Under the pieces are notes generated by a model that searched no databases, was not told the origin of the DNA, and saw only the letters and a list, made by a program, of their open reading frames with translations. A program made the translations under genes and the position numbers. From Planctomycetota bacterium (GTDB lineage: Bacteria > Planctomycetota > PUPC01 > JACPCR01), in assembly GCA_016179685.1 (NCBI GenBank), contig JACPCR010000064.1, positions 181,186 through 245,185 on the forward strand: a stretch of DNA of 64,000 nucleotides, read 5' to 3'. Numbering within the stretch: position 1 is the first letter of the stretch; each line of letters begins with the position of its first letter. This document shows, in pieces, positions 9,406-52,350 of this stretch.

Positions 9406-11097
9406 CTACTCGGAAAACTTTCGCATCACGGAATAAAAGAACTTTCCGGTCTCGAGGGCGTCGACGCTGGCCCGGATCAAGAGAACGTGGGCAGCCTGGA
9501 CGGTCAGCAGCCCGACCCAGATTCCCAGCCGTTCACGCCTGGTATCCGTTCTCGTTCCCGTCCCTGGCAGCCATGTCTCGGCGGCCCGGGCGGTTGCGGC
9601 GGCGAGGATCGGGAACAGGAAGAGCCAAATCCGAGCCACCTCCGCGCGGTTGATGCCGAGTGCCCAGAGCAGCAGGAACGTGAAGAAGACGCCCCAGAAA
9701 ATGGGGGTATCCACCGCCAGGGAGCGCTCGGCGAGCGCCCTTCGGACTTGGGAGAATCCGAGGACGGCGATGGCGCCCGCGGCAGGCATTCCCATGGAAT
9801 AGGCGGCCTCCACGAGGTTCGTCGCGACCCAGGGCCAGTAGTTTACCCCGTGGGTCTGGAGAAAACTCGCATTATTCCTCTGGCAGGCTGCCAGAACGCT
9901 CACGAGGTTGAATTCCGACGTTGCATGGAGAAGAAGCACGGGAAGGAGAAAACCTGCGAGGGCGCCGGCGAGGGGAGGCCCGAGGGGCTTCGGCCCCAGG
10001 GGCCCAGGGCCAGCCGCTGGCCCGACCCGACCGCGTGCGGAGCGCCAGGCAGCCACGCCGGCCCAGAAGACCATGCCGGCAGGCACCAGGAAGCCCAGGG
10101 TGAAGAACAGTGCAGCGGCGCTGGCGAGGCCGAAGAGAAGTCCATAGCGGATGCTGCCGGTCCGCAAGGCCCGCCACCCCAGAAGAACCAATACAAGGGC
10201 GGGCACGGCAAGAGCCTGGTCCAGGCCAGGGCTATATCCGAAAGACCCTGGGAAGAGAGCGGACACCGTGGCCACGGCGAACGACGCCTGCCGGCCCGCA
10301 CCTTCCCGCGCCAGGAGGTAGACGCCAACCGGGACGAGCGAGGCAAGGAGGAAGCAAAAGAGCGCCGCGGCCAAGCTCGTCGCCAGCGGATACCTCAGAT
10401 TCTCCCATTGTGGAGCGGCCCGGGCCAGCGTGGCCTCGAGGATGGGAGATGCCCGCACCGCTTCCTTCTCGAGCCCCTCGCGGCAGGCCGGGAACGTTTC
10501 CAGGATTCGATGCAAGGCCACGAAGAACAGGATGGGACCCGGTGGATGCGTCTCCACGTGCGGCACCTGCGGTCGCCGGGGCGCATCCAGGAACTGTTGC
10601 TGGTAGACGCGCAACAGGCGGCCCGAGTCATCCACCTGGCTCGCCTCGAGGTGATAGGCCCCGTCTCCCAGGGGATTGACGAACGGCCACACCGCCTCGG
10701 CGAGCGAGAATTCCCCAAGGAACATCACGGCCGAAAGGTGGAGGAGGAACTTGAGCGCCACGAGCACGGAGAGGAGCAGGCCCACCCATCGTGCCCCGGT
10801 CGAGGCCGCCTCGAGCTCCGGTCCTCGAGCGATTCCTGCCGCCGCCACCACCACCATCAGTCCCGCGAGCACAGCCGGGAATGGCAGTCCATCCCATTGC
10901 GGATTCGGGGCGTATCGGGTCACGTACTCCCCAAAGACGCCCGAGCGGATTCGCAGCACCACGGGTAGCAGCAGAAGGACAGCCAGAGCCAGGCCTCCCA
11001 AAGCCCAGAGCCGTCGCCCCCGCCATGAAGCCCCGCCAGCCCCCCGGCTGATTCCGTCTCCCCTTTCCTCCTCTGCTTCACCCTTCTCGGGCTTCAT
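9406..11097 (-). CDS. polytopic integral membrane protein, function unknown
   Basis: ORF 9406..11187; start set to internal ATG 11097 (MKPEKGEAEE...); many hydrophobic helices; 28 bp upstream of PPK2 on same strand. Confidence 0.55.
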   Translation of the reverse strand: MKPEKGEAEEERGDGISRGAGGASWRGRRLWALGGLALAVLLLLPVVLRIRSGVFGEYVTRYAPNPQWDGLPFPAVLAGLMVVVAAAGIARGPELEAASTGARWVGLLLSVLVALKFLLHLSAVMFLGEFSLAEAVWPFVNPLGDGAYHLEASQVDDSGRLLRVYQQQFLDAPRRPQVPHVETHPPGPILFFVALHRILETFPACREGLEKEAVRASPILEATLARAAPQWENLRYPLATSLAAALFCFLLASLVPVGVYLLAREGAGRQASFAVATVSALFPGSFGYSPGLDQALAVPALVLVLLGWRALRTGSIRYGLLFGLASAAALFFTLGFLVPAGMVFWAGVAAWRSARGRVGPAAGPGPLGPKPLGPPLAGALAGFLLPVLLLHATSEFNLVSVLAACQRNNASFLQTHGVNYWPWVATNLVEAAYSMGMPAAGAIAVLGFSQVRRALAERSLAVDTPIFWGVFFTFLLLWALGINRAEVARIWLFLFPILAAATARAAETWLPGTGTRTDTRRERLGIWVGLLTVQAAHVLLIRASVDALETGKFFYSVMRKFSE

Positions 11098-18337: not shown

Positions 18338-19341
18338 TCATCGGACCATCAGCAGGGATTGAGAGGAAGCGCCAGAATCCGGGGGTCCACTATGTCCGGA
18401 GCTTCGCCGCGGCTCGCTGGAGAGCGCGGCCAGGTGCGCCAGGCCGGCCAGGAAGTAAAGGTGGTGGTGGAGATGGCCCTGATAACTGCCGTCGCGGGCG
18501 CTGATGCCAATGACGCCCTGGCCCGGCTGGAGATCGGCCAGGACGCCTTCGGCCAGCGCCAGGCCGAACTCGAGCGCCTCGGAGTCGCCCGTGGCCTCGA
18601 AGTACTCGCACAAGCCCTGCGCGACCAGAGGATACTGGCCCACCAGGCTCGAGCCCCAATGATGCGTGGGCATCACCTCGCCCGTCGCCTTCACCGGGAT
18701 CATCCCGTGCGCGTAGTAGGCCCGGCCCGTGTCCCACGACGCCGTGCTGCGCAAGGCCTCGAAACACCTCCGGGCCAGCACCCGGTCCCCCTCGCGGCCC
18801 TGCGTCCGGCCGCGCCGCGCCAGAACCCCCATGAGCACCGCCGTGGTCCAGGGGTTTGGCCAGTCGCCGCCCCCGTCCACCGCCGTGAAAGTTTTTCCGG
18901 TATCCACACCCAACCATCATCCCGCAGCAGACTGAGCAGCCGCCGCCGGATGCCCGCTTCCACCTCGGGCGCGTCCGGCACGACGCCCAGCATCTCGCGG
19001 ACGACATCGTAGGAGCGACACCACTCCGCGTCCGTCTGGCCGATGGTGATGGCGTCGCGGGAACGGGGACGGGATGGCGCGACGACGGGCACGACGGCGG
19101 GATAGCCCAGGGGCCCGATGCAATGGGAGCATTCGTAATCGTACTCCGGCTCGGGCATGTGGACGAGGTAGTGGCCGATGCGGCGGAGGATGGGCAGGAG
19201 GTCGGAATTCGACGCCGGCGCAGAGGCCGCGGGTGCGACGCCCGGCGCTCCCTCGAGGAGTAACGTCATCCGTCCCCCGCCGCGGTGAAAGCCCCGGGTA
19301 GGCGAAGACAGCGAGGAGTTGAAAAGGTCCTTGCCGTTCAT
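18338..19341 (-). pseudogene. hypothetical protein (possible glycosyl-hydrolase-like fold), interrupted by -1 frameshift at a T5/A5 run
   Basis: ORFs 18700..19341 and 18338..18913 are consecutive parts of one reading frame if the T5 run near 18892-18896 is read as T6 (...IPEKTFTAVDGGGDWPNPW...). Confidence 0.45.
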
Positions 19342-26434: not shown

Positions 26435-27742
26435 ATGCCTTCCCATTCCAAGCCATGCGTGCGCACGCCTCTGCCGGGGCCCCGAGCACGGCAGCTCCTC
26501 GAGCGTGATGCGAATGTGGTCTCACCTTCTTACACCCGGGCCTATCCGCTCGTGGCAGCACGAGGCAAAGACGTCTGGATCGAAGACGTGGATGGCAACG
26601 TTTTCCTCGATTTCGCCGCAGGCATCGCGGTTTGCGCTACCGGCCACTGCCATCCGGAAGTGGTTGGCGTCATCTGCGAACAAGCCGAAACGCTCATCCA
26701 CCTGTCGGGCACGGATTTCTATTACGCGCCGCAGATCGAACTGGCTGAGAAGCTCGTGGCTATTGCACCCGGCAACTTTCCGAAGAAAGTCTTCTTCACC
26801 AATTCCGGCGCCGAGGCCGTGGAAGCGGCCATTAAGTTGTCCCGCTTCGCCACCCATCGACCACACCTGATCGCCTTCTACGGCGGATTCCACGGCCGTA
26901 CCATGGGGGCGCTCACTCTGACCGCCAGCAAACCGGTGCAGCACCGGGGTTTCTTGCCGCTCCTGCCGGAGGTATCGCATGTGACCTTCCCGACGGAGGA
27001 CTGCGAACCGACCTGGAAACAACTGGCGGAGCTGTTCCACCGCAAGATCGATCCTCGAGAGGTTGCGGCGATCGTCGTCGAGCCCATTCAGGGCGAGGGC
27101 GGCTACCTCGTTCCGCCTCCCGAGTTTCTTCGGGGTCTTAAGGACATCTGCGAAAAGCACGCCATCCTCCTCGTTGCCGATGAAATCCAGTCGGGCATGG
27201 GCCGCACCGGTAGGATGTTCGCCATCGAGCATTTCGGCGTGCAACCGGACATTCTTTGCGTGGCCAAGGGCATTGCCAGCGGGCTGCCCCTGGGGGCTAT
27301 CATTGCCCGGGCGGAATTGATGAGCTGGCCGCCCGGCGCCCATGCCAGCACCTTCGGAGGGAATCCGGTGGCCTGCCGGGCCGCACTGGCAACCATCCGC
27401 CTTCTCGAATCTTCACTGATCGCCAATGCGGCCCGAATGGGAGAAATCCTGCTGCAGGGCATGGATGACCTGGCCAAAAAATATCCGTTTCTCGGGCATG
27501 TCCGGGGGAAGGGGCTCATGGCCGCCATGGATGTCTTCACGGATGAAACCCGGAGCAAGCTGTCGCCTGCCCGCCGGCAGGAGATACTCAAACTTTGCTT
27601 CGAAGGCGGCCTACTTCTTCTGGGATGCGGTGACGCGGGCATCCGGTTCTGTCCCCCCCTTACCGTGGGGCCTGACCACGTCTCCATCGCCCTTGACCTG
27701 CTCGGTCAGGCTTGCGAGAACACGGAAGGGGAGATAACTTGA
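26435..27742 (+). CDS. class III aminotransferase (4-aminobutyrate/omega-amino acid transaminase-like)
   Basis: 435-aa ORF; motifs TNSGAEAVE, DEIQSGMGRTG, STFGGNP typical of PLP fold-type I class III. Confidence 0.8.
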   Translation: MPSHSKPCVRTPLPGPRARQLLERDANVVSPSYTRAYPLVAARGKDVWIEDVDGNVFLDFAAGIAVCATGHCHPEVVGVICEQAETLIHLSGTDFYYAPQIELAEKLVAIAPGNFPKKVFFTNSGAEAVEAAIKLSRFATHRPHLIAFYGGFHGRTMGALTLTASKPVQHRGFLPLLPEVSHVTFPTEDCEPTWKQLAELFHRKIDPREVAAIVVEPIQGEGGYLVPPPEFLRGLKDICEKHAILLVADEIQSGMGRTGRMFAIEHFGVQPDILCVAKGIASGLPLGAIIARAELMSWPPGAHASTFGGNPVACRAALATIRLLESSLIANAARMGEILLQGMDDLAKKYPFLGHVRGKGLMAAMDVFTDETRSKLSPARRQEILKLCFEGGLLLLGCGDAGIRFCPPLTVGPDHVSIALDLLGQACENTEGEIT

Positions 27743-40691: not shown

Positions 40692-41048
40692 GAAATGGCA
40701 AAGCCAAGCAAGTTGACAGAAAGGCGTGAATCCTTATAAGGGAGTCTTATAGCTCCCGCAAATAACTGCTCTTGTGAGTGTTGGCCATAGAGGCCATAAA
40801 TCTGATATATTCTTACCTTAGATCACTTACGTGCCGATACCAGCGAGACCCGCCTGCGCCGCGGGCGCGGCAGGCAGGCGTTGGCATTTCCAGTTAGGTT
40901 TTTGCGGCTGCTCTTAGGTTGTCACTTCCCCGCGCCCGCCTCCCATAGTCCCAACGGGATCCCTCCCGCCGGGATAAGTTCGGCGGGCACCCGGCGGAGA
41001 TCTTTCACGGTCATGGAAGCGCTTTGCTTCCGCATCGGGAGTTGCAAT

Positions 41049-41444
41049 ATGGCTGACTCTGAAATTCTTCCCGAGGGGAAAGTAGCTTCATCGGGAAAAC
41101 ATGGGGAAGTCAAGTTTGACTACATCAAGAGCAATCATTTTCGGGTAATCTATGCTGACGGTGTCTGGGGTGGTCTAACTCCACGTCTCAAGATGCAGAT
41201 CACATTTTGGAATGAACGCCACCCCATCCCCAGGCAAATCGTTCAGGAACTCACGGAGAAAGAACAGCCGGGTAGAGAATTAAGGCGAGAATCCAGAGAG
41301 GCAATCGTTCGAGAACTCGAGGCTTCGGTCATCATGGACCTCGAGGTGGCCCGCTCTTTCTGCAAGTGGCTCACCGAAAAGATTGAGAAAGCTGACCAAC
41401 TCTTGGCCCAACACAAAGAATCAGAAAAAAAGGAGAATCGTTGA
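41049..41444 (+). CDS. hypothetical protein (island cassette gene 1)
   Basis: within ORF 40881..41444; ATG 41049 preceded by GGGAG; lower-GC region; C-terminal predicted helical/charged tail; no family recognised. Confidence 0.5.
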   Translation: MADSEILPEGKVASSGKHGEVKFDYIKSNHFRVIYADGVWGGLTPRLKMQITFWNERHPIPRQIVQELTEKEQPGRELRRESREAIVRELEASVIMDLEVARSFCKWLTEKIEKADQLLAQHKESEKKENR

Positions 41445-42040
41445 TGCCACCGGCGAGTGCAATGTCCGATGTTATTCGCGCAGGTTCTCACTGCACCAGC
41501 ACTCTTGACTTGAGAGTGCCCCTTCCAGGAGCCAGTCAACTAGAATATGCAGCGTGCTTCCGAAATCCTATTGCCCTGGGTGAAGAGATTCCTTCAGAAT
41601 CCCCATCGGATTGGCCTGTGCCGTTGGACGAGGCGACCGTGGATGCCCTGGGTGAACATAATCTTTCGGAGTTCCCATCGGATTTGACATTTTCCGAACC
41701 TTGCAGCGAGCGAGATCTGGAAGATTATCTCAGAAGTCTCGAAGATGAGGGGTTTATTCCCTCCTCGATGAGGAGGAGCGCTCTGAAACTGTGGAAAACT
41801 TTAGAGCATCTTTCAGGTCATTGTTTGACGATTCCGGGTGCTGCTCCAGGCCCTGACGGGAAGTTATTCCTCGTTTGGGGTGAGGGCGAGCACCACTTCG
41901 AGGCCGAGTTGATCCCTGACAACCCGATAGAGTTCTTCTACATGAACCGCGGAACCAACGAGACTTGGAGTGGAGAGGCTGCTGATGAGAATGAGGTATC
42001 CCACGAAATCGTAGAGAAGCTGATGTCTCTTTGGGGGTAG
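41444..42040 (+). CDS. hypothetical protein (island cassette gene 2)
   Basis: ATG 41444 overlaps upstream stop (TGATG), AAGGAG 9 nt upstream; acidic protein; no family recognised. Confidence 0.5.
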   Translation: MPPASAMSDVIRAGSHCTSTLDLRVPLPGASQLEYAACFRNPIALGEEIPSESPSDWPVPLDEATVDALGEHNLSEFPSDLTFSEPCSERDLEDYLRSLEDEGFIPSSMRRSALKLWKTLEHLSGHCLTIPGAAPGPDGKLFLVWGEGEHHFEAELIPDNPIEFFYMNRGTNETWSGEAADENEVSHEIVEKLMSLWG

Positions 42041-42044
42041 CCTC

Positions 42045-42533
42045 ATGCCCGCAGTGAAGCGAGGGGTGGAGGGCGAGCCCTTACCCGGCGAGGAAGTCGT
42101 TTTCCGTCTCTGGCGGAAAGGAAAGGATGGCACGCGCGATGAATTGGTGGCCGCTTTTGAGTTGTCAAGCGATGAGAGGCGGTCACTACGCCCCACGTTG
42201 TCAGTTTTTGCTGAGGGGCTCACTTCCCATGAACAGGCATTCGAAATTACTGGGAAGAATTCGTTGAAGCGACTCGTGCTCCGAATGCAGGTCTGCGAAA
42301 TTCGGAAGATCGACTTGGTGCCTCCTGACCTGAATTTTCGTGGTCTCGATGTCATCTGGGTCCAAGCCAAACTGCAGGAGAATGGCCGAGAAGTCCCGGA
42401 CGAAAGACCGGGTGCTGAAGGTCATGCTGGAATTTTGGGACTCAGTAGCCCTCCAAACAAGAACTCTAGAAAAGTACTTCGAGTGAAACTTGCCGAATTA
42501 GCCTACCACAACGATCCCTTTGACAAACGTTGA
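42045..42533 (+). CDS. hypothetical protein (island cassette gene 3)
   Basis: 162-aa ORF 5 nt after previous stop; no family recognised. Confidence 0.5.
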   Translation: MPAVKRGVEGEPLPGEEVVFRLWRKGKDGTRDELVAAFELSSDERRSLRPTLSVFAEGLTSHEQAFEITGKNSLKRLVLRMQVCEIRKIDLVPPDLNFRGLDVIWVQAKLQENGREVPDERPGAEGHAGILGLSSPPNKNSRKVLRVKLAELAYHNDPFDKR

Positions 42534-42638
42534 CGGCGAGTGCAGGTACCCGGCAATCACGTCCGATGAGTCCCATCCTCTGATCGAATACCCGCACCGA
42601 GAATCCAGTCAGGTTCTGCAGATAGCGCAGCTTCTTGT

Positions 42639-44681
42639 TTACTCCAGAATAAGCGATTTCGTCAGAAGCTTCTCGATGTAGGTGGCCTTGTCTTCCTTCT
42701 GGAAAAGCACATGGTGCTTCTCGAAGGAGGCCTTGTTCGTCCCGCCCTCCCACCAAGTGACTTCCTCCCGGCGGGTACTTGAAAGGATGAAGGAATTCAG
42801 GATGACGGCTGGATCGCCTATCCGGCCCTCCAACTCTTTGATCGTGGCGTGGAAACGAATCTTCGGGTCGTTCTTGCCCTCAAGATTCCGGATGCCTTTG
42901 GGATCAATGAAGGTGATGTGCTGGCGGCTGCCCGATAGAAGCCAGAGGATGAAATCCGGGTAGAAGTTCCCCGCCTCGAAGAACCCGATACCCCGGCCCC
43001 GGCTCTGGTTGCGTAACAGGTAGAGTTCCTTCTCCTTGAAGAAGCCCTTGTTGCTGTCGAAGAAGGAGCGCAGGTCGAGGACGAATTCCCTTTCGCCTTC
43101 GTTCAGGGAAACCGGTCGGACCTCGATGTTGTCGCCCTTGAGGTAGAGGAGAGGGCGGTAGAGGTGCTGGCCGAAGCAGATGCCGCGAAACCGGTCGTGC
43201 TCGATGTCCCGCCATTCGCCCCGCTCCACGGCCTGCTTCAGTTCCTTGAGCTTGGCGATGATTTCCTTCTCGGATTCGTCAATCAGAATGCGGTATTCTT
43301 CGATGAAGTTGGGGTCGTCCGGGCGCAGTTCCCGATACTCTAGGTGTGGATTCTCATACTCCGCCTTCCGGTAATAGTAGTAACGCTCGCAGTATTTCTT
43401 CAGCAGGGCGATCGCCACCTCTTCCCATGCCCGAACCCTGCCGAAGCGGGTCAGGCTTAGCTCCGTTTCGGGAATGTAGAGCGTATACCAGTCCGACCGA
43501 GCCAGCAGACTTCGCACCTGCTCCCTGGACAGGCTGAGGTTATGCCAGGCCTTCTCGCTCTTGAAGTGCTCAAGCTCGAAGAACACGCGGTCGAAATCCA
43601 TGAAAGCCAACTGGACGTCCCGCAGCTTCCCTTCGTGCTGTTCGGCAGCGCCCTGACTCGTTCCCGCGCCGCGGCTGATGTGCGCTTGGACTCTCGGATA
43701 CCAGTCCAGGACGACCGGATACCTGACCAGATGTTCCGGCGGCACGTCGAGCGCCGGCTTGGGTCCGTCCCGCTTGAAATCAATGCCGTCTTTCAGCTTG
43801 AGAGTCTTGAGCTTCGTCTGGCCGAGGTTCTTCAGGACGGGCAGGACAAACTCCATCCGATCTTCGTTGGACGGCAGCCCCTCCTCTTCGAGGTATTCCT
43901 TGAACTGCCGCATGTAATCGGCCCGGATGCCGAAGATGTGAATGTCGATGATTTCCACGGATTTCCCGGCGAACAGCCCACGCCCGTCCTTCGAGAACAT
44001 TTCCGCCTGAAGCCCGGACAGCCCGAATTCCTCCAGGTGTTGCCTCGATAGCCCTTCGTTGGGAGTCAGGAGAATGATGCGATTGAGGTTGCGTTCCTTG
44101 CCGTGCTGGGCCAGGTAGTGTCGATACTGAAGCAGGTTGACGTGCATGAGCAGCGTCTTGCCCGACCCAGTGGCGCTCCAGAAGGCCAGCTTATTGAGCT
44201 GCTCCGGCTCGTAGGGCTGAATCTTGTCCCCCTCTGTTTTGTCCTCGTTGAAGCGCCTGACGAACGCGTTCAGGTCATTGAGCAGGGTATCCGGATTCTG
44301 GAAGTAACGGTCGAGGTAAATCTCCGTGAACAGCAGCGAGAGGTATTGGAAATACTTCGGGTAGAGGTTGTTGGCCTGGTGGCGCTTCTCGGTGATGACT
44401 CGCCAGTGGCGGACAATGTTTTGGTCGTATTGGAGAAGCAGGTCCGAGGGAAGCTGCTTGCGCTGGAATAGGCGGGCTTTGAGGACGTGGTGATAATGGC
44501 TGACGCCTTCGCCGTCGAACCCCTCCAGGTTTGGGCTTTTCAGCTCCTCGGCGAGCTGGCCAATGCGTTCGACCTCGAACAGGTCGAGCCTCCACTGGGC
44601 GAGGACGAGGCGCTCGTCGAATTTGAGGCGGGTCTCGCGGCGGGTTGGGCCGGCTCTCCTTCGGGCGGTTCCTGAAGGCAT
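42639..44681 (-). CDS. restriction-endonuclease-like P-loop NTPase (Res-like: helicase-type ATPase with C-terminal PD-(D/E)xK-like motif)
   Basis: 680-aa ORF; Walker A FWSATGSGKT; degenerate motif II-like IIDIH (no DExH); C-terminal YPDFILW...TFIDPKG fits PD...(D/E)xK nuclease pattern; last gene of the mod-containing minus-strand array. Confidence 0.55.
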   Translation of the reverse strand: MPSGTARRRAGPTRRETRLKFDERLVLAQWRLDLFEVERIGQLAEELKSPNLEGFDGEGVSHYHHVLKARLFQRKQLPSDLLLQYDQNIVRHWRVITEKRHQANNLYPKYFQYLSLLFTEIYLDRYFQNPDTLLNDLNAFVRRFNEDKTEGDKIQPYEPEQLNKLAFWSATGSGKTLLMHVNLLQYRHYLAQHGKERNLNRIILLTPNEGLSRQHLEEFGLSGLQAEMFSKDGRGLFAGKSVEIIDIHIFGIRADYMRQFKEYLEEEGLPSNEDRMEFVLPVLKNLGQTKLKTLKLKDGIDFKRDGPKPALDVPPEHLVRYPVVLDWYPRVQAHISRGAGTSQGAAEQHEGKLRDVQLAFMDFDRVFFELEHFKSEKAWHNLSLSREQVRSLLARSDWYTLYIPETELSLTRFGRVRAWEEVAIALLKKYCERYYYYRKAEYENPHLEYRELRPDDPNFIEEYRILIDESEKEIIAKLKELKQAVERGEWRDIEHDRFRGICFGQHLYRPLLYLKGDNIEVRPVSLNEGEREFVLDLRSFFDSNKGFFKEKELYLLRNQSRGRGIGFFEAGNFYPDFILWLLSGSRQHITFIDPKGIRNLEGKNDPKIRFHATIKELEGRIGDPAVILNSFILSSTRREEVTWWEGGTNKASFEKHHVLFQKEDKATYIEKLLTKSLILE

Positions 44682-44687
44682 CGGTGG

Positions 44688-45013
44688 CTAAGGTGATGGA
44701 AGAGGAATTTCAACATACTGGCCGGGTTTCACGGTCTTCAGTGTTTGCTCGATGACGGACAGAAGGCCGGCCACCATCGGAACCTGGTTGCTGGGAAGAA
44801 CCACCACTGCGAGCTTTATTGCGGCAAGGTTCTGCTGATAGCGTAAGTTCTTGTCCGTGGTCATGAAGACGTCAAACTCGTTCTCCGCTCGCCTGAGCAA
44901 TTCGCCGTTCTTCAGCCCGCTCCACAAACCATTTCCTGAACGGTTCGGATTGCCAGATCGGGAAGTCGCGTCTTCACCAGCCGCGGCACGCACTCATCAA
45001 GTAAGATTCTCAA
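44688..45013 (-). pseudogene. DUF5615-like (PIN-like) toxin-type gene, apparently frameshifted
   Basis: N-terminal ILLDECVPRLVKTRL (DUF5615-like) is read in one frame from TTG ~45013, the remainder (...WSGLKNGELLRRAENEFDVFMTTD...) in ORF 44688..44993; frames differ by 1 nt near 44930. Confidence 0.4.
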
Positions 45014-45255
45014 TTCGACCTACCCAGGCGCAGAAGGGTGGCTTTGGAGAATTCAAGGACTTGTAACGCCTGCTCTCGAGTCACGGAAGGGAAGTTCTCC
45101 AGAAATTCTTCCAGGGTCAGGCCCGCCTCGAGGTTGTCAATGAGGGCTTGCACCGGGACCCGCGTCCCCCGGAAAACGGGCGCTCCGCTGACGATTTCGG
45201 GATCGATGGTTATCGGCAACTGCTCAAGCTCTGCCTCTTCAATGACCAGTGACAT
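45010..45255 (-). CDS. DUF433 family protein (antitoxin-like partner of DUF5615)
   Basis: ORF 45010..45297; start at ATG 45255 with GAAGGAGG upstream; GAPVFRGTRVPVQALIDNLEAG matches DUF433 pattern from memory. Confidence 0.6.
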   Translation of the reverse strand: MSLVIEEAELEQLPITIDPEIVSGAPVFRGTRVPVQALIDNLEAGLTLEEFLENFPSVTREQALQVLEFSKATLLRLGRSN

Positions 45256-45318
45256 CGTGGGCCTCCTTCGTGAGGGTCGGGAATCGACGAGAGCCATTTT
45301 ACTCCAGATTGCCTTCCC

Positions 45319-48300
45319 CTACACGTCCTTCACGTCGAACATCAGCCGCTGGAATTCCTCCTCAATTAGCCGGACTTTCCAGGTCATGTCCTCACGGCGC
45401 AGGTTTTCCAGGTGGTTGTCGCCGTTCACGTAAATCAGGTCGAACTCCTGGTCCCGGGTGTTGTACTTCTGCTTCCGGAAAAACTCGTCCAGGTCCTCGT
45501 TCGACTTCCCTGCCTTCCCGTCGGGAGCAGACAGGTCCTTCAAGCTCCGCCAGATGACCAAAACCTTCTCGCCCTGGGGATTCGTGCCTTGGACGACCCG
45601 GAAGCCCCGGATAACGTCCACGTGCATTACCCGGAGGCCCAGCAGGTAGTTGAAGGTCTCGACCAGGTCCACGGTTGTGGGCCGAGTCTCGCCCGCGCTG
45701 CCGGTGGCGATGTTGAGCTTGTAGAAGAAGGGGTCTTCGAACGCGGCGATGTTCAGCAGCGACGCGCTGCCGCGGCTCTCCACGTCCAGCATATAGGAGA
45801 GGAGGTAGTCCTCCCGGACTCCGTCGTTGGCTTCCAGGAGGGCGGCCTGCAAGTCGGTGCGTTTCAGTTCCAGGTTGTTGAGGGTGTCTTCGTAGGATTT
45901 CAGCCGGAGGTATTTGAAGAGGTGGCTGGAGCCTTCGCGGCTAACCGGCTTGCCGTCTTTCCAGTCCTTGGAGTAGATGACCTTCTGGATGCGTGGCTTG
46001 AGGACGGTATTGAAGTATTCGGCCATCTCGACGAGGATATACTTGCGGCCCCCCCCGGGTCTCGCGCGTCATCGCGATTCAGGTTGATGACGGCATGGCC
46101 CGTGGTGCCGGAACCGGCGAAGAAGTCCAAGACCAAGGAGTCCTCCGCGTCCGAGCAAATAAGCACGCAATCCTTGACAGCGTGTAGGGATTTGGGGAAG
46201 TCGAATGGACTCAGCGGACCAAACATTTCCTTCAATTCTTTCGTTCCATTGTCCCGAGCAGAATAGGCCGGGCTATCCCACCACGTGCGAGGCAGCGACC
46301 CTTCTTCGCGTAAGTACTTCCGTTTGTAAACCTCGTACTTGCCATCTCGCTTCATCACCTTCATTAGACAGACCTCTGCGATCGCCCTTTGAACGCCGAA
46401 GTTCCAGACCTTTTCAACGCCTGAATCGTCAATGGGCCAAATAGCGACTTCGCCGGGACGGGTTTTCTCGTTGATCCTCCAACTTTTACTGGTTTCTAGC
46501 CATTCCATCCCGGGGATCCGCTGTGCGTGATGCGCCTCGTCGAAGTAGATCGGAAAGAATTGCTTCGGTCGGTCTGGTCTGTCCGATCCCCTGCTGCTCT
46601 TCCTGAAGTTCTCCCATTCGAACGGTTTTCCCTCCTCATCTACTTGGTCGTACCTTTGTCGCTGAGAGTCACTGTGAGGCAACCGACCAACTTCGGAAGA
46701 CTGTGCAAGTTTCGAGTAGAACAGCGCGTACTCGTGGTTAATGGCGAACCCCTTCGTCGTAGCGCGACCGGACGGGTTGTTGCGAATCACAACGGTCGCC
46801 ATGTAGTTCTCATCAAAGAAAACACGATCTAACACAGACCTCAGGCGGTGGGATTCGTAGTCATCTATCGTCACGCACAGCAGCCCGTCGCAAGACAGGA
46901 CTTCACGTGAGAGTGCAACTCTATCTTCGACGAGGGAAATCCAAGTCGAGTGCTTGTACTCGTTCTTATACAGAATCTCGCTCTCTATCGCGTTATAAGG
47001 TGGATCGATGTAGATACACTTAATCTGTTCCCTATAGCGTGTTTCTATTAGGTTGAGCGCCTGGAAGTTCTCCCCGTGCACCAGCAGCCCGTCGGTATTC
47101 TCGTCCAGGTCCTGGATGCTGGCCAGCAGGCGGTCTTTGAACTCCGGGTCGAAGAAACGGGTGTCCAACACCAGGAAGGGATTAGCCTTCAGGAACTCCA
47201 CAGTGAGCGGCTTGGAATATTTCGGGGTGTGCAGGTCGCCCTGGATTTCGTCAATGGCGAAGAGGCGGACCCATTCCTCCCGCTGGGCGTCGCTGGCCGC
47301 GATTTCTACGTATAGCTCCCCAGGGACGCGGTCGAGCGTGATGCAGTAGTTCGTCTCGACCACGAACTTCTTCTTGAGCCAGAGCTTCTTCTGGAAGTTC
47401 TCCAGTTGCTCCAGGAAGGCGATGATCTTGTGGGCGATGCGGCGGAGCGCACGGATTTTGCCGAGATACTGCTCCACGCGGGGCGCGGACTCGCTTTCGA
47501 TGTCGTCCAGGTGCATGACCTCGTTCTTGATGTAGAAGTCCAGCTCCCGGCGGAGGAAGCCGCCCAGGTCCTTGTGGATGAAGTAGTCGAAGGTGTTGCG
47601 GGCGGTGTAGTCCGTGAGGTGCTTTTCGAGAAGGGTGCGGTCGGGATTCTTTTCGGTGGGGGCGGGGGTGGAGAGTTCCTCAATCCATTCTTTCGCATTG
47701 GCGGCTTGTAGTGCCCTCTTTAGAGGGTTGCCTTCGTCTGCACTACCCGCATCGAAGAGACCCGCTGTCCCAGCGGGATCCCTATGGGAAAGCGGCACTA
47801 CGAACCCGGAAGCGATGGCGGCGTTGTGATCCGACTGTTTCCGTTTCTGCGGGTCCGGCTGGTAGAGGAAGTGGATGAATAGCTCGTCAGGCTTTATGTC
47901 CACGGGATTCGATTCGCAGAGCATGAACCGGCGCTCCTTGTCGGGCCCGGCTTTCTGGTTGTCCTTCTCGGTGTCGGCTTCGACGAGCTTGAAGTGGACG
48001 CGGCGGCCGGAGGGGAGCTTGAAGGTGTAGTCCCGGAAGTATTCGGACGACTTGACGTAATACTGGTCGTGATTGGCCCAGTGGAGCTTGACCTCCTCGC
48101 CTTCGTAGGGGATGGCATAGACGCCTTCCTTGTAGCGGCGGAGGGAAAGGAAGTCGCCCTCGTGGTAGTAGCGGCGGAAGAAGTTGGTGAGGTCGGAGAA
48201 GATTTCCTGTTCGAGGGCGGCGGGGTCGCCGGCGGACTGGTATTTGGCCTTGAGTTCCTTGACCTTCGGGCTGGTTTCCGGGTCGATGCCAAGTCCTTTG

Positions 48301-48527
48301 GCCTGTTCGATGGCTTCCTTGAGTTGGGACTCGATGACGCGCTGGTCGCCGGACTGGTGTTCGCTTAGGGCATTGCGGACTTGCGGGAGGAGGTCTTTGT
48401 CGAGGAAGCGGGTAATCTCGTCCCGCTTCTGGTTCATGATGCGGTAGATGCCGAAATCGAGGTCGGCCTGGTCGAGCTGGAAGAGCTCGGCGAGCAACCG
48501 CCTCAACTTCTCGAGGTTTTGAGACAT
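45319..48527 (-). CDS. beta-class (N6_N4_Mtase-type) DNA methyltransferase, type III Mod-like, with ~500-aa N-terminal extension; reading frame interrupted at a C8/G8 tract
   Basis: ORF 45900..48527 contains motif IV IYIDPPYN and, ~300 aa later, motif I LDFFAGSGTTGHA (order IV then I = beta class); C-terminus continues in ORF 45319..46026 if the G8 run at 46049-46056 is read as G9 (...NLNRDDARDPGGGRKYILVEMAEYF...). Confidence 0.7.
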
Positions 48528-48546
48528 TGCGACAAACCCTCTGCGT

Positions 48547-49650
48547 CTATTCGTTGTGCTCGAGGAGCACGAATTTCCGTTTCAGGCCGTTCAAACAGTC
48601 GTGGCGGAGATGCCCCTCGTGCTGAAGCCGCCCGACGACGATACCGGGAGCGATACCGAGTTGACGGGCGAAGGCCGAAATGTCCTTCTCGCTTCGGTAC
48701 TTGCCCGTGGTTACCAGCTCGTCGTACTTGGCTTGCGGGATCAGCATCTTCACCGCGAAACGGTCCGCCTCCGTTTCCTCCATGCTCTTCGGCTTCTCCT
48801 TGTCGTCGACGAAGGCGGCCCTCTTGCCGTGCAAGAGTATGTGGCCTGCCTCGTGGAAGAAGCTGAACCAGAAATGGTCGTCGCTCTTATGCCGAAGGCT
48901 GAGCATCAGGAGGGCCTTGTCCTTGCTCAGCCAGCGTGTCGCGCCGCTGAGGTGCGTGCCCGGCAACTCCGCTACGAAGACGACGGCTACGCCGGCGTCG
49001 CAACAGAGGGCCTTCATCTTCGGCTCGAAGATGGCAGGCTCCGCGTTGGTGACCGACTGAATCTCCCGTAGCGCCGCGAGGAACCGTTCTTTGTCGTAGC
49101 GCGAGCAGACAACTTCCCGCGCCCACAGCTCCCCGATCCGTAGCCACGCCGTCAGGGACTCGGGAGCGCTCTTGAATGCAGGGGAATGCCTATAGGCTAC
49201 GTTGAGACCGGCGTAGGCTTCTTGCCAGGCCTCCACGCTTCCCACACCGAAGAAAGCAAGAAGGGAGGCAACGAGCTCGGCTGGGTCATCGGTTTTGGGA
49301 ATCAACCGGCGTTCAGCAAGCTCCTTGATGGGGAACTTCCTTGCCCACGCTTCCTGGCCCTCAAGCGCGGACCGGTCGGCAGCCTTGGCCGCGTGGAGCC
49401 GGAACAGACCATCCAGGTTGTTCCAGACCGCAGCGGACACGCCAAGGACCCTCTCCAGTTGGATGGCAGTCTCCGACGTGACGTTAGCCTTTCCAGTGAT
49501 GATTTGGCTAACCGTCTTCTCGCTCAGACCGCACCGTTGGGCCAGGTCCGTCCCCTTCATGCCCTTCGCTTCCAGGGTCTCCTTCAAGATCTCTCCCGGG
49601 TGAACGGCGTAGTCGGGATGGAATTCGTTCCTATCCGTGCTAAGTGTCAT
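48547..49650 (-). CDS. HigA-like HTH (XRE family) antitoxin domain fused to ImmA/IrrE-family metallopeptidase domain
   Basis: 367-aa ORF; N-terminal HPGEILKE...LSEKTVSQIITGKANVT HTH; C-terminal FFHEAGHILLH HExxH zinc-peptidase motif (COG2856-like). Confidence 0.7.
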   Translation of the reverse strand: MTLSTDRNEFHPDYAVHPGEILKETLEAKGMKGTDLAQRCGLSEKTVSQIITGKANVTSETAIQLERVLGVSAAVWNNLDGLFRLHAAKAADRSALEGQEAWARKFPIKELAERRLIPKTDDPAELVASLLAFFGVGSVEAWQEAYAGLNVAYRHSPAFKSAPESLTAWLRIGELWAREVVCSRYDKERFLAALREIQSVTNAEPAIFEPKMKALCCDAGVAVVFVAELPGTHLSGATRWLSKDKALLMLSLRHKSDDHFWFSFFHEAGHILLHGKRAAFVDDKEKPKSMEETEADRFAVKMLIPQAKYDELVTTGKYRSEKDISAFARQLGIAPGIVVGRLQHEGHLRHDCLNGLKRKFVLLEHNE

Positions 49651-49985
49651 CGGTGGTAGTCCTCCAGGCTCAGGATGCGGATAGTGGTGATCCGGGTAAG
49701 GTCGATGCCCCCGTCAGGTTTGAGCGGCAGGTCGGCCTCAGCGGGCCCAAAAACGAGACGGAAGGGATGTTTGAGGTCAACGGCGAACTGCCCCTTCCTG
49801 TTCCCCGTCAACTCGTGTCGGCGCGTGGGCGGCACGTGGGGGACCTCGGCGAGTGTCGGGGCAGCTCGAAGGAAGGCCATGCGCTTCATGATAACCTTCC
49901 CGTTCTCTGCGCCGTACTCGCGGCATAGTGCCTTCTCGGAATTGAAGGTCTTAGCCATCTTGTCGTTCCCGAACAGGATGTTCAT
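49647..49985 (-). CDS. HigB-like (RelE/ParE superfamily) toxin
   Basis: 112-aa ORF overlapping downstream gene by 4 nt; resembles plasmid-maintenance-system-killer/HigB toxins (KALCREYG...LTGNRKGQFAVDL...FRLVF). Confidence 0.6.
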   Translation of the reverse strand: MNILFGNDKMAKTFNSEKALCREYGAENGKVIMKRMAFLRAAPTLAEVPHVPPTRRHELTGNRKGQFAVDLKHPFRLVFGPAEADLPLKPDGGIDLTRITTIRILSLEDYHR

Positions 49986-50050
49986 CCCCGCCTCATTATA
50001 ATCAGTTTACCTAAAAGGTAAAGCTTTTTCTCGCGTTCGCACCAGGAGTC

Positions 50051-51543
50051 TCAGGTGACCGACCATCGGATGGTGAAGAGATGCTCCACAGTTGTTCGCT
50101 GGGTCATTCGCTTTTCGAGCGCGGCGATGAGCGTGTCCCGCTTCGCCAGAATCTCATCTTCGAGGTCGAAAATCTTCTGCCGCTGTTTCCGCTGCTTCTG
50201 CTCCAGGTCCCGGATTTGGACCTACAACTGATGCTGCTCTTCAGTGGTGGCAGACATCCGGGCCTGCCGGTTCAGCGCCCGGATCTGCGCTTTGGTGTCC
50301 GCCAACTCCTTTTCCGCGGCCAGAACTTTATCCTCCGCCCATTTCTCCAGCCGTTCCCGCTCCTCCTGGAGGAAGCGGTTGTTCATCTCAAGGGAGCGGC
50401 TGATGGTGGCTTTGACGTGCCGCTGGGCTTCCTTGCCGAGCCGGTCTTTTATTTCCTGCGGCTGGCTTTCCAAAGGGGAAGCCTTGCCATTGCAAAGGAA
50501 AAGCTTCTCGCAGGTTTCCTGGTTCACGGGCCGGGCGGAATCGTCCAGCGCGGAGAAGAGGAGGTATTCCTCCCGGTCGAAGGATTCGATGACGAGCCGC
50601 TGAAGCACGAGCCAGCCGGAGTTGCCTTTGAGGGCCTCCACTACGGAAAGCCGGGTGGGATGGCTGGTGATATCGAAGGCGACTTCCGCGAGCGGGGTCG
50701 GGCAGGAGCGGCCTTCGCTGAGCGCGTGCTGGCCGAGCGGATGGGAGAGGCGATAGAGGAACTCGCCGGAAACGTTCTGCTGGGACTTGGAGATGAGGTG
50801 GTATCGGCCGGGCCGGACGCCATCGCAAGGGGCGGCGTGAAGGTCGAAGTGAAGCGCCTGGTCGTCAAAGCTGGCCGCGTTCCGCAGGATAAACTTGGTC
50901 AGCGCCCAGAAGAGCTTGCCGAAGCGGTCGAGCTGCTCGCGGGCGCTGTCGAGCTGCACTCTCAGGCGGGCGTGGACCTCTTCATCGAAGTGTTCGAGGA
51001 GGATGCGGCGGGTCTCGTCGATCCGGGACTTGATGGAGGATTCGAGTTCGGCGCGGAGCTGCTGGAACGCGGCTTCGATCTCGCCGGGCGTCCGGCACTG
51101 CTGATAGATGGCGAGGATGCGCTTTTCAAAGTCCACGCCGGATTCGATGGTGCCGAGGACTTCGTCCGACGCGCCGAAGACGCCCGTGAAGAGGTTGAAC
51201 TTATCCTGGAGTTCGAGCGACCACTGCTTGCGGATGGATGCCGGGCAGATGACAAGGAGTCGGCGGCGCTGCTCTGTCCAATGCTGTGGCACAGGACAAG
51301 CCCCGCCTCGATGGTCTTGCCCAAGCCGACCTCATCCGCCAGGATGACGCCTTTGGAGATGGGTGAGCGGAGGGCAAAGAGCGCGGCGTCAATCTGGTGG
51401 GGGTTGAGGTCCACGCAGGCGTCGAACAAGGACCGGGAGATGCGGTCCACTCCGGTTGTCGGCCCCTGGCGGGTCAGTTCGTAGGCATAGTAGCGGGCGT
51501 GGTAGGGAGTGCTCACGACCGGGCCAATCTCCGGGGCTATCAA
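50051..51543 (-). pseudogene. SNF2-family helicase remnant (frameshift, in-frame TAG, helicase core apparently missing)
   Basis: N-terminus in ORF 50962..51543 has SNF2 motif I (ILADEVGLGKTIEAG); continuation LVICPASIRKQW is in a different frame (ORF 50222..51292); reading continues in frame through TAG at 50222-50224 for 56 more codons; no DExH or motif VI seen. Confidence 0.5.
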
Positions 51544-51684
51544 GACAAGTGGGCCTGTTTCTGAAGCCGTGAAGGCGGCCTCCAGGACAGCATTCTATCC
51601 ATTTGTCTTTGCGCGTTCCGACCGAGACAATCCAATCGGACACAGGACGCATTTCGAACACGCCGTGTAAAAAATCCGGGCCAG

Positions 51685-52350
51685 GTGGTCCCCATTTGGA
51701 ATCGCTGGGTGCTTCAAGTGGAGATTCATCCGGCGGCTGGCCGCACCTGTCCCGCCGCGCTTCGCTCCACTCTGCGTTCCGCCCCGAATGTCATCGCGCT
51801 CGGAGCGATACGGGACCCGGAATCTCTGGCCCTTTGCCTGGAAGCTTCTCTCATGGGCCATCTGGTCCTGGCGGTTCTGCAAGTCGAAGACGCAGCGGCG
51901 GCGCTCCAGCGCATGGTTGAAATGTCGGGCGACCCACTCGTGGTGGCTGATGCAACGAAGCTGGTGGTCTCGCAGAGATTGGTGCGGAAGCTATGCACCC
52001 GATATTCCCGGGAAGAGCCGCCCGGGGATGAGCTTCTCGAGTGGGCCAGGAGCGCGGCGGAGAGCGGAGGCCTGGATTGGGCAACAGCCTCGAAACGCTT
52101 CCGCTCTGCCACGGGGTGTCCTGAGTGCATGAATACGGGATACCGTGGCCGGAACGTCATCGCCGAGGCGCTGGAGGTCACGCCCGGTATCCGGGCCGCG
52201 CTCCGTGAGAGAGCGGCGACCGGTCGTCTTCGGGCCGTGGCCATCGAACAGGGTATGATCTCCTTCAGCGCCCATGGGATTCTGAAAGCGTCGCCAGGCT
52301 TCACCACCTTGGGCGAGATCGCCCGTCACTCGGGCAGCTCATTCGTTTGA
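51685..52350 (+). pseudogene. C-terminal fragment of GspE/PilB-type secretion ATPase
   Basis: 221-aa ORF lacks Walker A/B but retains C-terminal features (PNVIALGAIRD, GHLVLAVLQVED degenerate His box, GCPECMNTGYRGR zinc-knuckle region). Confidence 0.45.

What the first reader, a model, noticed from the sequence alone, without database searches (positions are those of the whole stretch)
46040..46065. C8/G8 homopolymer tract splits the DNA methyltransferase reading frame
The MTase is encoded in two overlapping ORFs (45900..48527 and 45319..46026). Reading the run of eight C at 46049-46056 as nine restores one continuous frame through ...[25 protein letters not shown].... Homopolymer tracts in type III mod genes are a known phase-variation mechanism, so this could be an on/off switch. 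Another gene (18338..19341) is also broken at a T5 run, which makes an assembly or sequencing indel equally plausible.
Basis: partly seen in the sequence, partly recalled or inferred. Interest (0 to 1): 0.6.

Follow-up and report, generated by a model that had tools for sequence, protein, structure and literature searches.

The report
Frameshifted methylase in a decayed defence operon
The eight-base C/G run really does break a DNA methyltransferase gene, but both partner genes of its three-gene restriction-type operon are also wrecked, by irreversible mutations, so this is most likely an ordinary dead gene rather than an on/off switch.

Summary
C8 at 46049-46056 (G8 on the coding minus strand) splits a ~1069-codon Type III-like mod gene (45319..48527, minus strand). 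G9 or G6 would restore the frame.

It is not a one-off assembly error. Contigs assembled separately from three sequencing runs carry G8 and are 100% identical to the window.

The phase-variation reading is not supported:
- Only the OFF length is seen, and no intact near-identical protein exists in a 15-billion-protein collection.
- No homologue examined (119 aligned proteins; the 60 of 80 genomic loci that could be parsed at the site) has a tract there. The run lies beside a lineage-specific 4-codon insertion.
- G8 runs are depleted in the window, with 1 observed against about 10 expected.
- The mod gene belongs to a conserved SNF2-Mod-Res operon, and both partners are destroyed by irreversible lesions. 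Res has lost about 380 aa carrying helicase motifs II-VI. The SNF2 gene has a 2-nt insertion, a deletion of about 470 aa and a TAG stop.
- Sequence downstream of those irreversible lesions is as well conserved as sequence downstream of the G8. The intactness of mod therefore says nothing in favour of reversibility.

Verdict: a recently decayed defence island in a Planctomycetota MAG, in which the G-run was simply the most slippage-prone site. Interest is low. Only read-level tract counts could revive the switch idea.

The parts
46049..46056 (-). G8 homopolymer (C8 on the + strand), the site of the frame break in mod. The in-frame lengths would be 6, 9 or 12.
   Evidence: It is the only G8/C8 run in the window. 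The length is the same in the Logan contigs L001/L083, L002 and L084.
46057..46067 (-). Lineage-specific insertion (codons A-R-D-P) immediately 5' of the G-run. Homologues have 9 nt between the conserved Asp codon and the Arg-Lys codons; the window has 20 nt, a net gain of 11 nt.
   Evidence: It is absent from all 119 aligned homologues, from the 60 homologous loci parsed at DNA level, and from the solved Mod Mbo45V.
45319..48527 (-). mod pseudogene: a Type III-class N6/N4 DNA methyltransferase of 1069 codons once repaired. DPPY lies at about aa 527-530 and FAGSGTT at about aa 824-830. The frameshift removes everything after motif I.
   Evidence: After repair, 300 of 305 columns that are >=90% conserved are retained.
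42639..44681 (-). res remnant (680 aa). It has an in-frame deletion of about 380 aa, with the junction at 43941|43940 (VEIIDIH|IFGIRADY). The deletion removes DEGH (motif II), SATFGQ, GSKKFTEGW and QLFGRGVRL. Walker A and the C-terminal nuclease region are kept.
   Evidence: PADLOC REase_III aligns only to profile positions 673-1125 of 1154. tblastn gives two segments separated by about 1.13 kb in all 71 homologous loci that contain res. See also the alignment with eight full-length Res proteins of 1030-1072 aa and the junction DNA.
50054..51540 (-). Remnant of a DrmD-like SNF2 helicase gene (about 955 aa in homologues). It carries a 2-nt (CA) insertion frameshift near 51286, a deletion of about 470 aa at a repeated (E/D)KFxL motif near 51190-51200, and a TAG nonsense codon at 50222-50224.
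   Evidence: All three lesions are present in the independent contig L083.
48547..49985 (-). HigB-like (49647..49985) and HTH plus Peptidase_M78 (48547..49650) gene pair inserted between SNF2 and mod. These are cargo genes, not core components.
   Evidence: The same pair occupies the same position in L003, L026, L037, L045 and L059.
44688..45297 (-). DUF433 gene (45010..45297) plus a small ORF (44688..44993) inserted between mod and res. These are cargo genes.
   Evidence: Roughly half of the homologous loci carry 0.2-4.6 kb of cargo between mod and res.

Best explanation
The G8 run marks a genuine frameshift mutation that has turned the mod gene into a pseudogene. It sits inside a three-gene defence operon (DrmD-like SNF2 helicase, Type III-class Mod, Type III-class Res) that is decaying as a whole in this Planctomycetota genome.

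Shown:
- The break is on the G-run.
- The allele is reproducible across three sequencing runs.
- The run lies next to an insertion unique to this lineage.
- The truncated product stops just after the AdoMet-binding motif I. It therefore lacks the following strand (RKYILVE) and the conserved 220-aa C-terminal domain.
- Res has lost its ATPase motifs II-VI.
- The SNF2 gene carries three independent lesions.

Inferred:
- The frameshift arose by replication slippage on the homopolymer, either G9 to G8 or G6 to G8. This is the most mutable site in a gene no longer under selection.
- Loss of the methylase is harmless because the nuclease partner cannot translocate or cleave, and because Type III Res needs Mod for target recognition.
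- All the lesions are recent, since the flanking coding sequence is still as conserved as in intact homologues.
For: Real and reproducible: G8 is present, with 100% identity over 5.7-21 kb, in Logan assemblies from SRR12113432, SRR12113390 and SRR12113426 and in the NCBI MAG contig.

No intact allele: the 875-aa product forms a single-member cluster. The next-best full-length proteins are only 63-64% identical.

Operon-wide decay:
- Res has a ~380-aa deletion relative to 71 of 71 homologous loci that contain res.
- SNF2 has a +2 nt insertion, a ~470-aa deletion and a TAG stop.
- A 5'-truncated T2SSE ATPase fragment lies at the island edge.
- The island has low GC, 53-60% against 64-66% in the flanks.

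Control for 'intactness': the mod C-terminus after the tract keeps 72 of 74 highly conserved columns. The SNF2 tail after its irreversible TAG stop is comparably conserved, lying within an HSP that is 64% identical.

The tract is not a family feature: there are no G/C runs of 8 or more in 80 homologous mod genes totalling 243 kb, and no run longer than G5 at the homologous site.

Background rate: 3 of 80 homologous mod genes are frameshifted elsewhere, so pseudogenisation is routine in this family.

Fold extends past the break: the alignment to the solved Mod Mbo45V reaches query residue 891, beyond the frameshift.
Against: No read-level data were available, so minority G9 or G6 alleles below assembler sensitivity cannot be excluded.

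Apart from the tract, mod is the only one of the three core genes without an irreversible lesion. G8 is also within the length range that does phase-vary in some bacteria (PMC5909438).

The three runs have closely numbered accessions, suggesting one study, and appear to sample one clonal population. They are replicate observations of that population, not of independent lineages.
Confidence: 0.77

Rival explanations
1. Contingency locus. The G-run is a phase-variation switch for a now Res-independent (orphan) Type III-class methyltransferase, currently in the OFF phase. Slippage to G9 or G6 would restore Mod and change genome-wide methylation, as in a phasevarion.
For: G[n] tracts switch Type III mod genes in Helicobacter and Campylobacter, and 7-8-base tracts can vary at measurable rates (PMC5909438). 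After repair, mod is fully intact and keeps 300 of 305 highly conserved columns. The tract lies next to a lineage-specific insertion. I noted from general knowledge, not tested here, that repeat tracts in contingency genes are often lineage-specific additions.
Against: Only the OFF length is seen, in three runs plus the MAG. No ON-length protein exists in the collection. The tract is shorter than the nine-base criterion and is absent from all homologues. G8 runs are depleted rather than enriched in the window. The neighbouring core genes carry five-fold fewer excuses: four irreversible lesions whose downstream sequence is equally well conserved, so intactness is explained by recency alone. Contigs run through the tract without breaking.
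Confidence: 0.12
2. Sequencing or assembly artefact. The true genome has G9 and the gene is intact.
For: Homopolymers are the classic site of indel miscalls. I could not establish the sequencing platform of the runs (one search found no paper).
Against: The same G8 appears in three separately assembled runs and in the deposited MAG. A C7 run at 27653-27659 lies inside an intact 435-aa gene. The other lesions in the operon (CA insertion, TAG substitution, two kilobase-scale deletions) are not homopolymer-type errors, and they are reproduced in L083.
Confidence: 0.06
3. Programmed recoding. A -1 ribosomal frameshift on G_GGG_GGG, or transcriptional slippage on the run, yields full-length Mod from the G8 template.
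For: The heptamer G GGG GGG is in the correct register. A -1 shift would give exactly ...DPGGGRKY... (reading).
Against: There is no stable structure in the 99 nt downstream (MFE -16.6 kcal/mol, z = +0.95, 169 of 200 shuffles fold at least as well). The zero frame runs on for about 50 codons. The site is not conserved in any homologue. By established knowledge, G-only heptamers are poor shift sites.
Confidence: 0.02

Closest known systems
Type III restriction-modification Mod subunits (EcoP15I Mod 4zcf, H. pylori Mod 6k0w, Mbo45V 7dsu)
   Same: It has the PF01555 domain with DPPY upstream of FxGSG (the beta-class order). It matches solved Type III Mods by sequence at E 4e-32 to 9e-27. It is followed by a res gene encoding an SF2 helicase plus a nuclease region.
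   Different: The protein is much larger, about 1020-1070 aa, with a conserved ~470-aa N-terminal region and a ~220-aa C-terminal domain. In most relatives it is preceded by a DrmD-like SNF2 helicase gene. The copy here is frameshifted.
Phase-variable Type III mod genes (phasevarions; H. pylori modH/J/L, C. upsaliensis modU with G[n] tracts)
   Same: A mononucleotide G tract lies inside the mod ORF, and its length decides the reading frame.
   Different: The tract is 8 bases, below the nine-base criterion. No length variation and no ON allele have been seen. The tract is not shared by any relative. The host is a free-living Planctomycetota MAG, and the surrounding operon is irreversibly broken.
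Decayed (pseudogenised) restriction-modification and defence islands
   Same: There are multiple independent inactivating lesions across co-operonic genes. The island has atypical GC, toxin-antitoxin-like cargo genes and a truncated neighbouring gene.
   Different: Nothing of note. This is the category it fits.
DISARM class 1 (DrmD SNF2 helicase plus DrmMI, DrmA, DrmB, DrmC)
   Same: In full-length homologues the upstream helicase matches DrmD models strongly: PADLOC PDLC02619 at 5.5e-198 and NCBIfam DISARM_DrmD_b at 664 bits.
   Different: The score is below NCBIfam's cutoff of 950. The methylase and the third gene score as Type III Mod and Res, not as DrmMI or DrmA. No DrmB or DrmC was found among the neighbours scanned.

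Membership tests
Type III R-M Mod (beta-class N6-adenine/N4-cytosine MTase) | N6_N4_Mtase (PF01555) catalytic domain | tested here: met
   PF01555 at 4.7e-28, residues 502-839. PADLOC MTase_III PDLC03646 at 1.6e-242.
Type III R-M Mod (beta-class N6-adenine/N4-cytosine MTase) | Motif order: catalytic DPPY (IV), then the variable region, then AdoMet motif FxGxG (I) | tested here: met
   IDPPYN lies upstream of FFAGSGTT in the translated sequence.
Type III R-M Mod (beta-class N6-adenine/N4-cytosine MTase) | Sequence similarity to experimentally solved Type III Mods | tested here: met
   7dsu at 3.9e-32, 6k0w at 9.4e-30, 4zcf (EcoP15I Mod) at 9.3e-27.
Type III R-M Mod (beta-class N6-adenine/N4-cytosine MTase) | Co-operonic functional Res (SF2 ATPase motifs plus endonuclease) | tested here: not met
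   A res homologue is present, but it lacks about 380 aa containing motifs II-VI. The system is therefore a relic of this family, not a working member.
Type III R-M Mod (beta-class N6-adenine/N4-cytosine MTase) | Continuous ORF / methyltransferase activity | tested here: not met
   The ORF is interrupted after motif I. Activity cannot be tested with these tools.
Phase-variable mod gene (phasevarion / contingency locus) | Simple sequence repeat within the ORF of a length accepted as phase-variable (mononucleotide >= 9) | tested here: not met
   The tract is 8 bases. The criterion comes from PMC5909438, which notes that 7-8-base tracts can still vary in some species.
Phase-variable mod gene (phasevarion / contingency locus) | Tract-length polymorphism between cells, samples or strains | tested here: inconclusive
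   All assemblies that cover the site (three runs plus the MAG) have G8. A scan of JGI metagenomes with variable-length flanks found nothing. Reads were not available.
Phase-variable mod gene (phasevarion / contingency locus) | Both ON and OFF alleles observed | tested here: not met
   No in-frame near-identical protein exists among about 15 billion. The P0001 cluster has a single member and the next hit is 63-64% identical.
Phase-variable mod gene (phasevarion / contingency locus) | Repeat tract shared by alleles or orthologues of the gene group | tested here: not met
   There is no tract at the site in 119 proteins or 60 parsed loci. No G/C run of 8 or more occurs in 80 homologous mod genes.
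Phase-variable mod gene (phasevarion / contingency locus) | Methylome and expression differences between ON and OFF | not testable with these tools
   This needs SMRT or nanopore methylomes of tract variants.
Programmed -1 ribosomal frameshift site | Slippery heptamer X XXY YYZ in the zero frame | tested here: met
   G GGG GGG is in register.
Programmed -1 ribosomal frameshift site | Downstream stimulatory structure, and conservation of the site | tested here: not met
   The fold z-score is +0.95. The site is absent from homologues.
DISARM class 1 | DrmD together with DrmA, DrmB (DUF1998), DrmC and DrmMI | tested here: not met
   There is only a DrmD-like helicase, and it scores below the NCBIfam cutoff. 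The other core genes score as Type III Mod and Res. No DrmA, DrmB or DrmC hits were found in the neighbours.

The most novel reading that the evidence does not exclude
The G8 run is a working contingency switch for an orphan Type III-class methyltransferase in a free-living Planctomycetota. Cells would flip between G8 (OFF) and G9 or G6 (ON) after the restriction partner was discarded. To my knowledge (not checked here) no phasevarion has been described in this phylum, and this one would be in an environmental rather than a host-adapted bacterium.
Probability: 0.08. Interest if true: 0.55.

Novelty: already known. Interest (0 to 1): 0.12.

Why it matters
It matters mainly as a caution. A homopolymer inside a broken Type III mod gene looks like a phase-variation switch, but context decides. 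Here the two partner genes carry deletions, a nonsense codon and a dinucleotide insertion, so the frameshift is one of five lesions in a dying defence operon.

Sequence downstream of the irreversible lesions provides a useful internal control. It shows that 'the rest of the gene is intact' cannot be taken as evidence of reversibility.

A by-product may deserve separate attention. The intact form of this system, a DrmD-like SNF2 helicase followed by a ~1020-aa Mod and a ~1060-aa Res, is widespread across phyla. I did not find it described in a limited literature search.

Tried and rejected
1. I scanned JGI metagenome contigs for the tract flanks with a variable-length gap (N{4,14}) to catch other tract lengths. 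There were 0 hits, so no information.

2. I scanned GTDB representative genomes with Mod. The source species is not among them; the best match is 62% identical. The scan gave family context only, not strain variants.

3. I looked for a -1 frameshift stimulator downstream of the run and found none.

4. There were no homologues and no domains, so it cannot be called a frameshift. It therefore gives no support to a general indel problem.

5. I considered that the insertion next to the tract is a recent tandem duplication (CGCGATGAC / GCGCGAGAC). The copies are imperfect and differ by an indel, so this stays speculative.

6. I considered a split but functional Mod, made of the 875-aa fragment plus a 235-aa fragment starting at ATG 46026. 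I rejected it. The conserved RKYILVE strand between motif I and that ATG would be missing from both pieces.

7. I considered DISARM membership because of the DrmD-like helicase and rejected it.

8. A literature search for the run accession, to learn the sequencing platform, found nothing.

Full report
**Observation**

The + strand carries CCCCCCCC at 46049-46056, which is G8 on the coding minus strand. Inserting one G yields a single 1069-codon ORF reading ...[38 protein letters not shown]...; deleting two G also restores the frame. More than a hundred full-length homologues of 1004-1093 aa align over 97-100% of the repaired protein, so this is one gene broken at the run.

The homopolymer itself is not statistically unusual. 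The window has one G8/C8 run, where dinucleotide-preserving shuffles give 10.2 +/- 4.0.

**What the gene is**

The repaired protein has a PF01555 N6/N4 methylase domain and matches PADLOC MTase_III PDLC03646 at 1.6e-242. Its closest solved relatives are Type III Mod subunits: Mbo45V 7dsu, an H. pylori Mod 6k0w and EcoP15I Mod 4zcf. DPPY precedes FxGSG, which is the beta-class motif order.

The break falls just after the AdoMet motif I. The truncated product therefore lacks the next conserved strand (RKYILVE) and a conserved ~220-aa C-terminal domain. The alignment to the solved Mbo45V structure continues past the break, to query residue 891.

**Is it an artefact?**

Exact-protein look-ups placed the window on a 315-kb contig of an NCBI Planctomycetota MAG. 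Res is MBI2192387.1 and the upstream HTH-peptidase gene is MBI2192389.1. The 875-aa Mod fragment has no NCBI protein accession, which suggests, but does not prove, that it was annotated as a pseudogene.

Logan assemblies of three separate runs cover the tract: SRR12113432, SRR12113390 and SRR12113426. All have G8 and are 100% identical to the window over 5.7-21 kb. Contigs run through the tract. The breaks seen in two runs lie elsewhere in mod, near 47581. A one-off assembly error is therefore very unlikely. I could not establish the sequencing platform.

**Is it a switch?**

No in-frame version of this gene exists in the 15-billion-protein collection. The truncated product is a one-member cluster, and the next hits are only 63-64% identical. 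A pattern scan of JGI metagenomes allowing any tract length found nothing.

All 119 aligned homologues read NLNR-E/D-D-GGx-RKYILVE at this site. The window alone has four extra codons (ARDP) immediately before the run. At DNA level, the 60 homologous loci that could be parsed have no run longer than G5 there. The window has 20 nt where they have 9 nt, a non-triplet gain of 11 nt.

Across 80 homologous mod genes (243 kb) there is no G/C run of 8 or more and no homopolymer of 9 or more. The published survey of Type III mod genes sets nine bases as its criterion for a mononucleotide tract. It concedes that 7-8-base tracts vary in C. jejuni and N. meningitidis (PMC5909438).

A programmed -1 frameshift on G_GGG_GGG would give the right product, but there is no downstream structure (z = +0.95) and no conservation.

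**The surroundings decide the matter**

The gene downstream, 42639..44681(-), is a Type III-class res. However, its 680 aa align only to positions 673-1125 of a 1154-position PADLOC profile. In each of the 71 homologous loci that contain res, the window's residues 19-248 and 247-675 match two segments about 1.13 kb apart in the same frame.

An alignment with eight full-length Res proteins (1030-1072 aa) shows a clean in-frame deletion of about 380 aa between VEIIDIH and IFGIRADY. The deletion removes DEGH (motif II), SATFGQ, GSKKFTEGW and QLFGRGVRL. Walker A and the C-terminal nuclease region remain (junction DNA).

Upstream, the 356-aa ORF 50222..51292(-) is a remnant of a ~955-aa SNF2 helicase. 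That helicase precedes mod in 60 of 80 homologous loci and scores as DrmD-like: PADLOC 5.5e-198 and NCBIfam DISARM_DrmD_b at 664 bits, below the cutoff of 950.

The window copy (50054..51540) carries three lesions:
- a 2-nt CA insertion near 51286;
- a deletion of about 470 aa between two (E/D)KFxL motifs;
- a TAG stop at 50222-50224.

All of these are reproduced in the independent contig L083. So the conserved SNF2-Mod-Res operon carries at least five inactivating lesions. Four of them are irreversible, and none of those four is homopolymer-related.

The island spans about 40.7-51.6 kb. Its GC is 53-60%, against 64-66% in the flanks. It also carries toxin-antitoxin-like cargo: HigB-like plus HTH-M78, and DUF433 plus a small ORF. 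It abuts a 5'-truncated T2SSE ATPase fragment.

**A control for the 'otherwise intact' argument**

After repair, mod keeps 300 of 305 columns that are at least 90% conserved in the family, including 72 of 74 downstream of the tract. On its own this could suggest selection for a reversible gene. But the SNF2 sequence downstream of its TAG stop, and the res sequence on both sides of its deletion, are comparably conserved, at about 58-64% identity to homologues with no further stops. The whole operon was evidently inactivated recently. The good state of mod needs no special explanation.

Frameshifted mod genes also occur at other sites in 3 of 80 homologous loci, so decay is routine in this family.

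**Most likely mechanism**

This part is inference. Once the system was no longer maintained, replication slippage on the longest homopolymer of the gene produced the frameshift, either G9 to G8 or G6 to G8. One reading of the local sequence is an ancestral N-R-D-D-P-G-G-R-K loop, which has the same length as the family loop. It would have gained an in-frame 9-nt GCGCGAGAC insertion and then two extra G.

Loss of the methylase is harmless. Type III Res depends on Mod for recognition (established knowledge), and this Res has no ATPase core. The order of the five lesions cannot be determined.

**Rivals**

- An orphan phase-variable Mod remains possible at about 0.1. G8 is mutable, and mod is the only core gene without an irreversible lesion.
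- A sequencing artefact is at about 0.06.
- Recoding is at about 0.02.

Only read-level tract counts, compared with control homopolymers in the same genome, can separate the first two from the preferred explanation.

**Comparison with known systems and novelty**

The gene is a member of the Type III Mod family by sequence and motif order. It is a non-functional relic by the criteria of a continuous ORF and a working Res. It fails most criteria of a phase-variable mod: tract length, ON allele and tract conservation. Polymorphism is untested at read level. It is not DISARM.

A homopolymer frameshift in a decaying restriction-modification operon is a well-known, ordinary phenomenon, so interest is low (0.12).

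Noticed in passing
window 50054-51540 (-); homologues e.g. L025:5112-7979, L003:428-3328: A ~955-aa DrmD-like SNF2 helicase gene precedes the large Mod (~1020 aa) and Res (~1060 aa) in 60 of 80 homologous loci from many phyla. PADLOC would call only 'Type III RM' plus an orphan DrmD. Two literature searches did not turn up a description of this three-gene arrangement.
   Followed up: partly
window 42639-44681 (-), junction 43941|43940: The res gene has a clean in-frame deletion of about 380 aa that removes helicase motifs II-VI. Walker A and the nuclease region are kept. The deletion is unique among the 71 homologous loci that contain res.
   Followed up: yes
window ~51286, ~51190-51200, 50222-50224 (-): The SNF2 remnant carries three separate lesions: a CA dinucleotide insertion, a deletion of about 470 aa between two (E/D)KFxL motifs (possibly mediated by short homology), and a TAG nonsense codon.
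   Followed up: yes
homologous loci L003-L082 (e.g. L022 6061-8004, L069 11062-13686); window 44688-45297 and 48547-49985: About half of the family's loci have 0.2-4.6 kb of unrelated cargo genes inserted between mod and res, or between SNF2 and mod. In the window the cargo is a DUF433 pair and a HigB-like/HTH-Peptidase_M78 pair. The latter pair recurs in five other loci and matches PADLOC PD-Lambda-2_B at 7.9e-38.
   Followed up: partly
window 51685-52350 (+): A T2SSE-family ATPase ORF covers only profile positions 187-370 of 370. It is a 5'-truncated gene fragment abutting the right edge of the low-GC island.
   Followed up: partly
window ~40700-51600: This is a low-GC island (53-60% against 64-66% in the flanks) with no tRNA gene anywhere in the window. 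Three small ORFs of unknown function on the opposite strand (40881-42533) have no Pfam or PADLOC hits.
   Followed up: partly
Neither has homologues or domains, and the DNA is identical in three independently assembled runs. It cannot be shown to be a frameshifted gene; it may be two ORFs or high-GC noise.
   Followed up: yes
window ~47581 (ends of L085 and L086) and 47394 (end of L002): Logan contigs from two runs break inside the highly conserved N-terminal part of mod, not at the G-run. The likely cause is de Bruijn graph branching with homologous mod genes of other community members.
   Followed up: no
window mod, about aa 237-268 and about aa 997-1005 (about 47720-47820 and 45510-45540): There are two further lineage-specific in-frame insertions in Mod, of about 30 aa and 9 aa, relative to the nearest homologues. 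One of the homologues shown (P0003) has its own insertion near the first site, so that segment looks variable.
   Followed up: no
L053:10800-10870, L040:~10871-10900, L076:~6116: Three of the 80 homologous mod genes in GTDB representative genomes are also frameshifted, at other positions. One lies near A6 runs in Flavobacterium aurantiibacter.
   Followed up: partly
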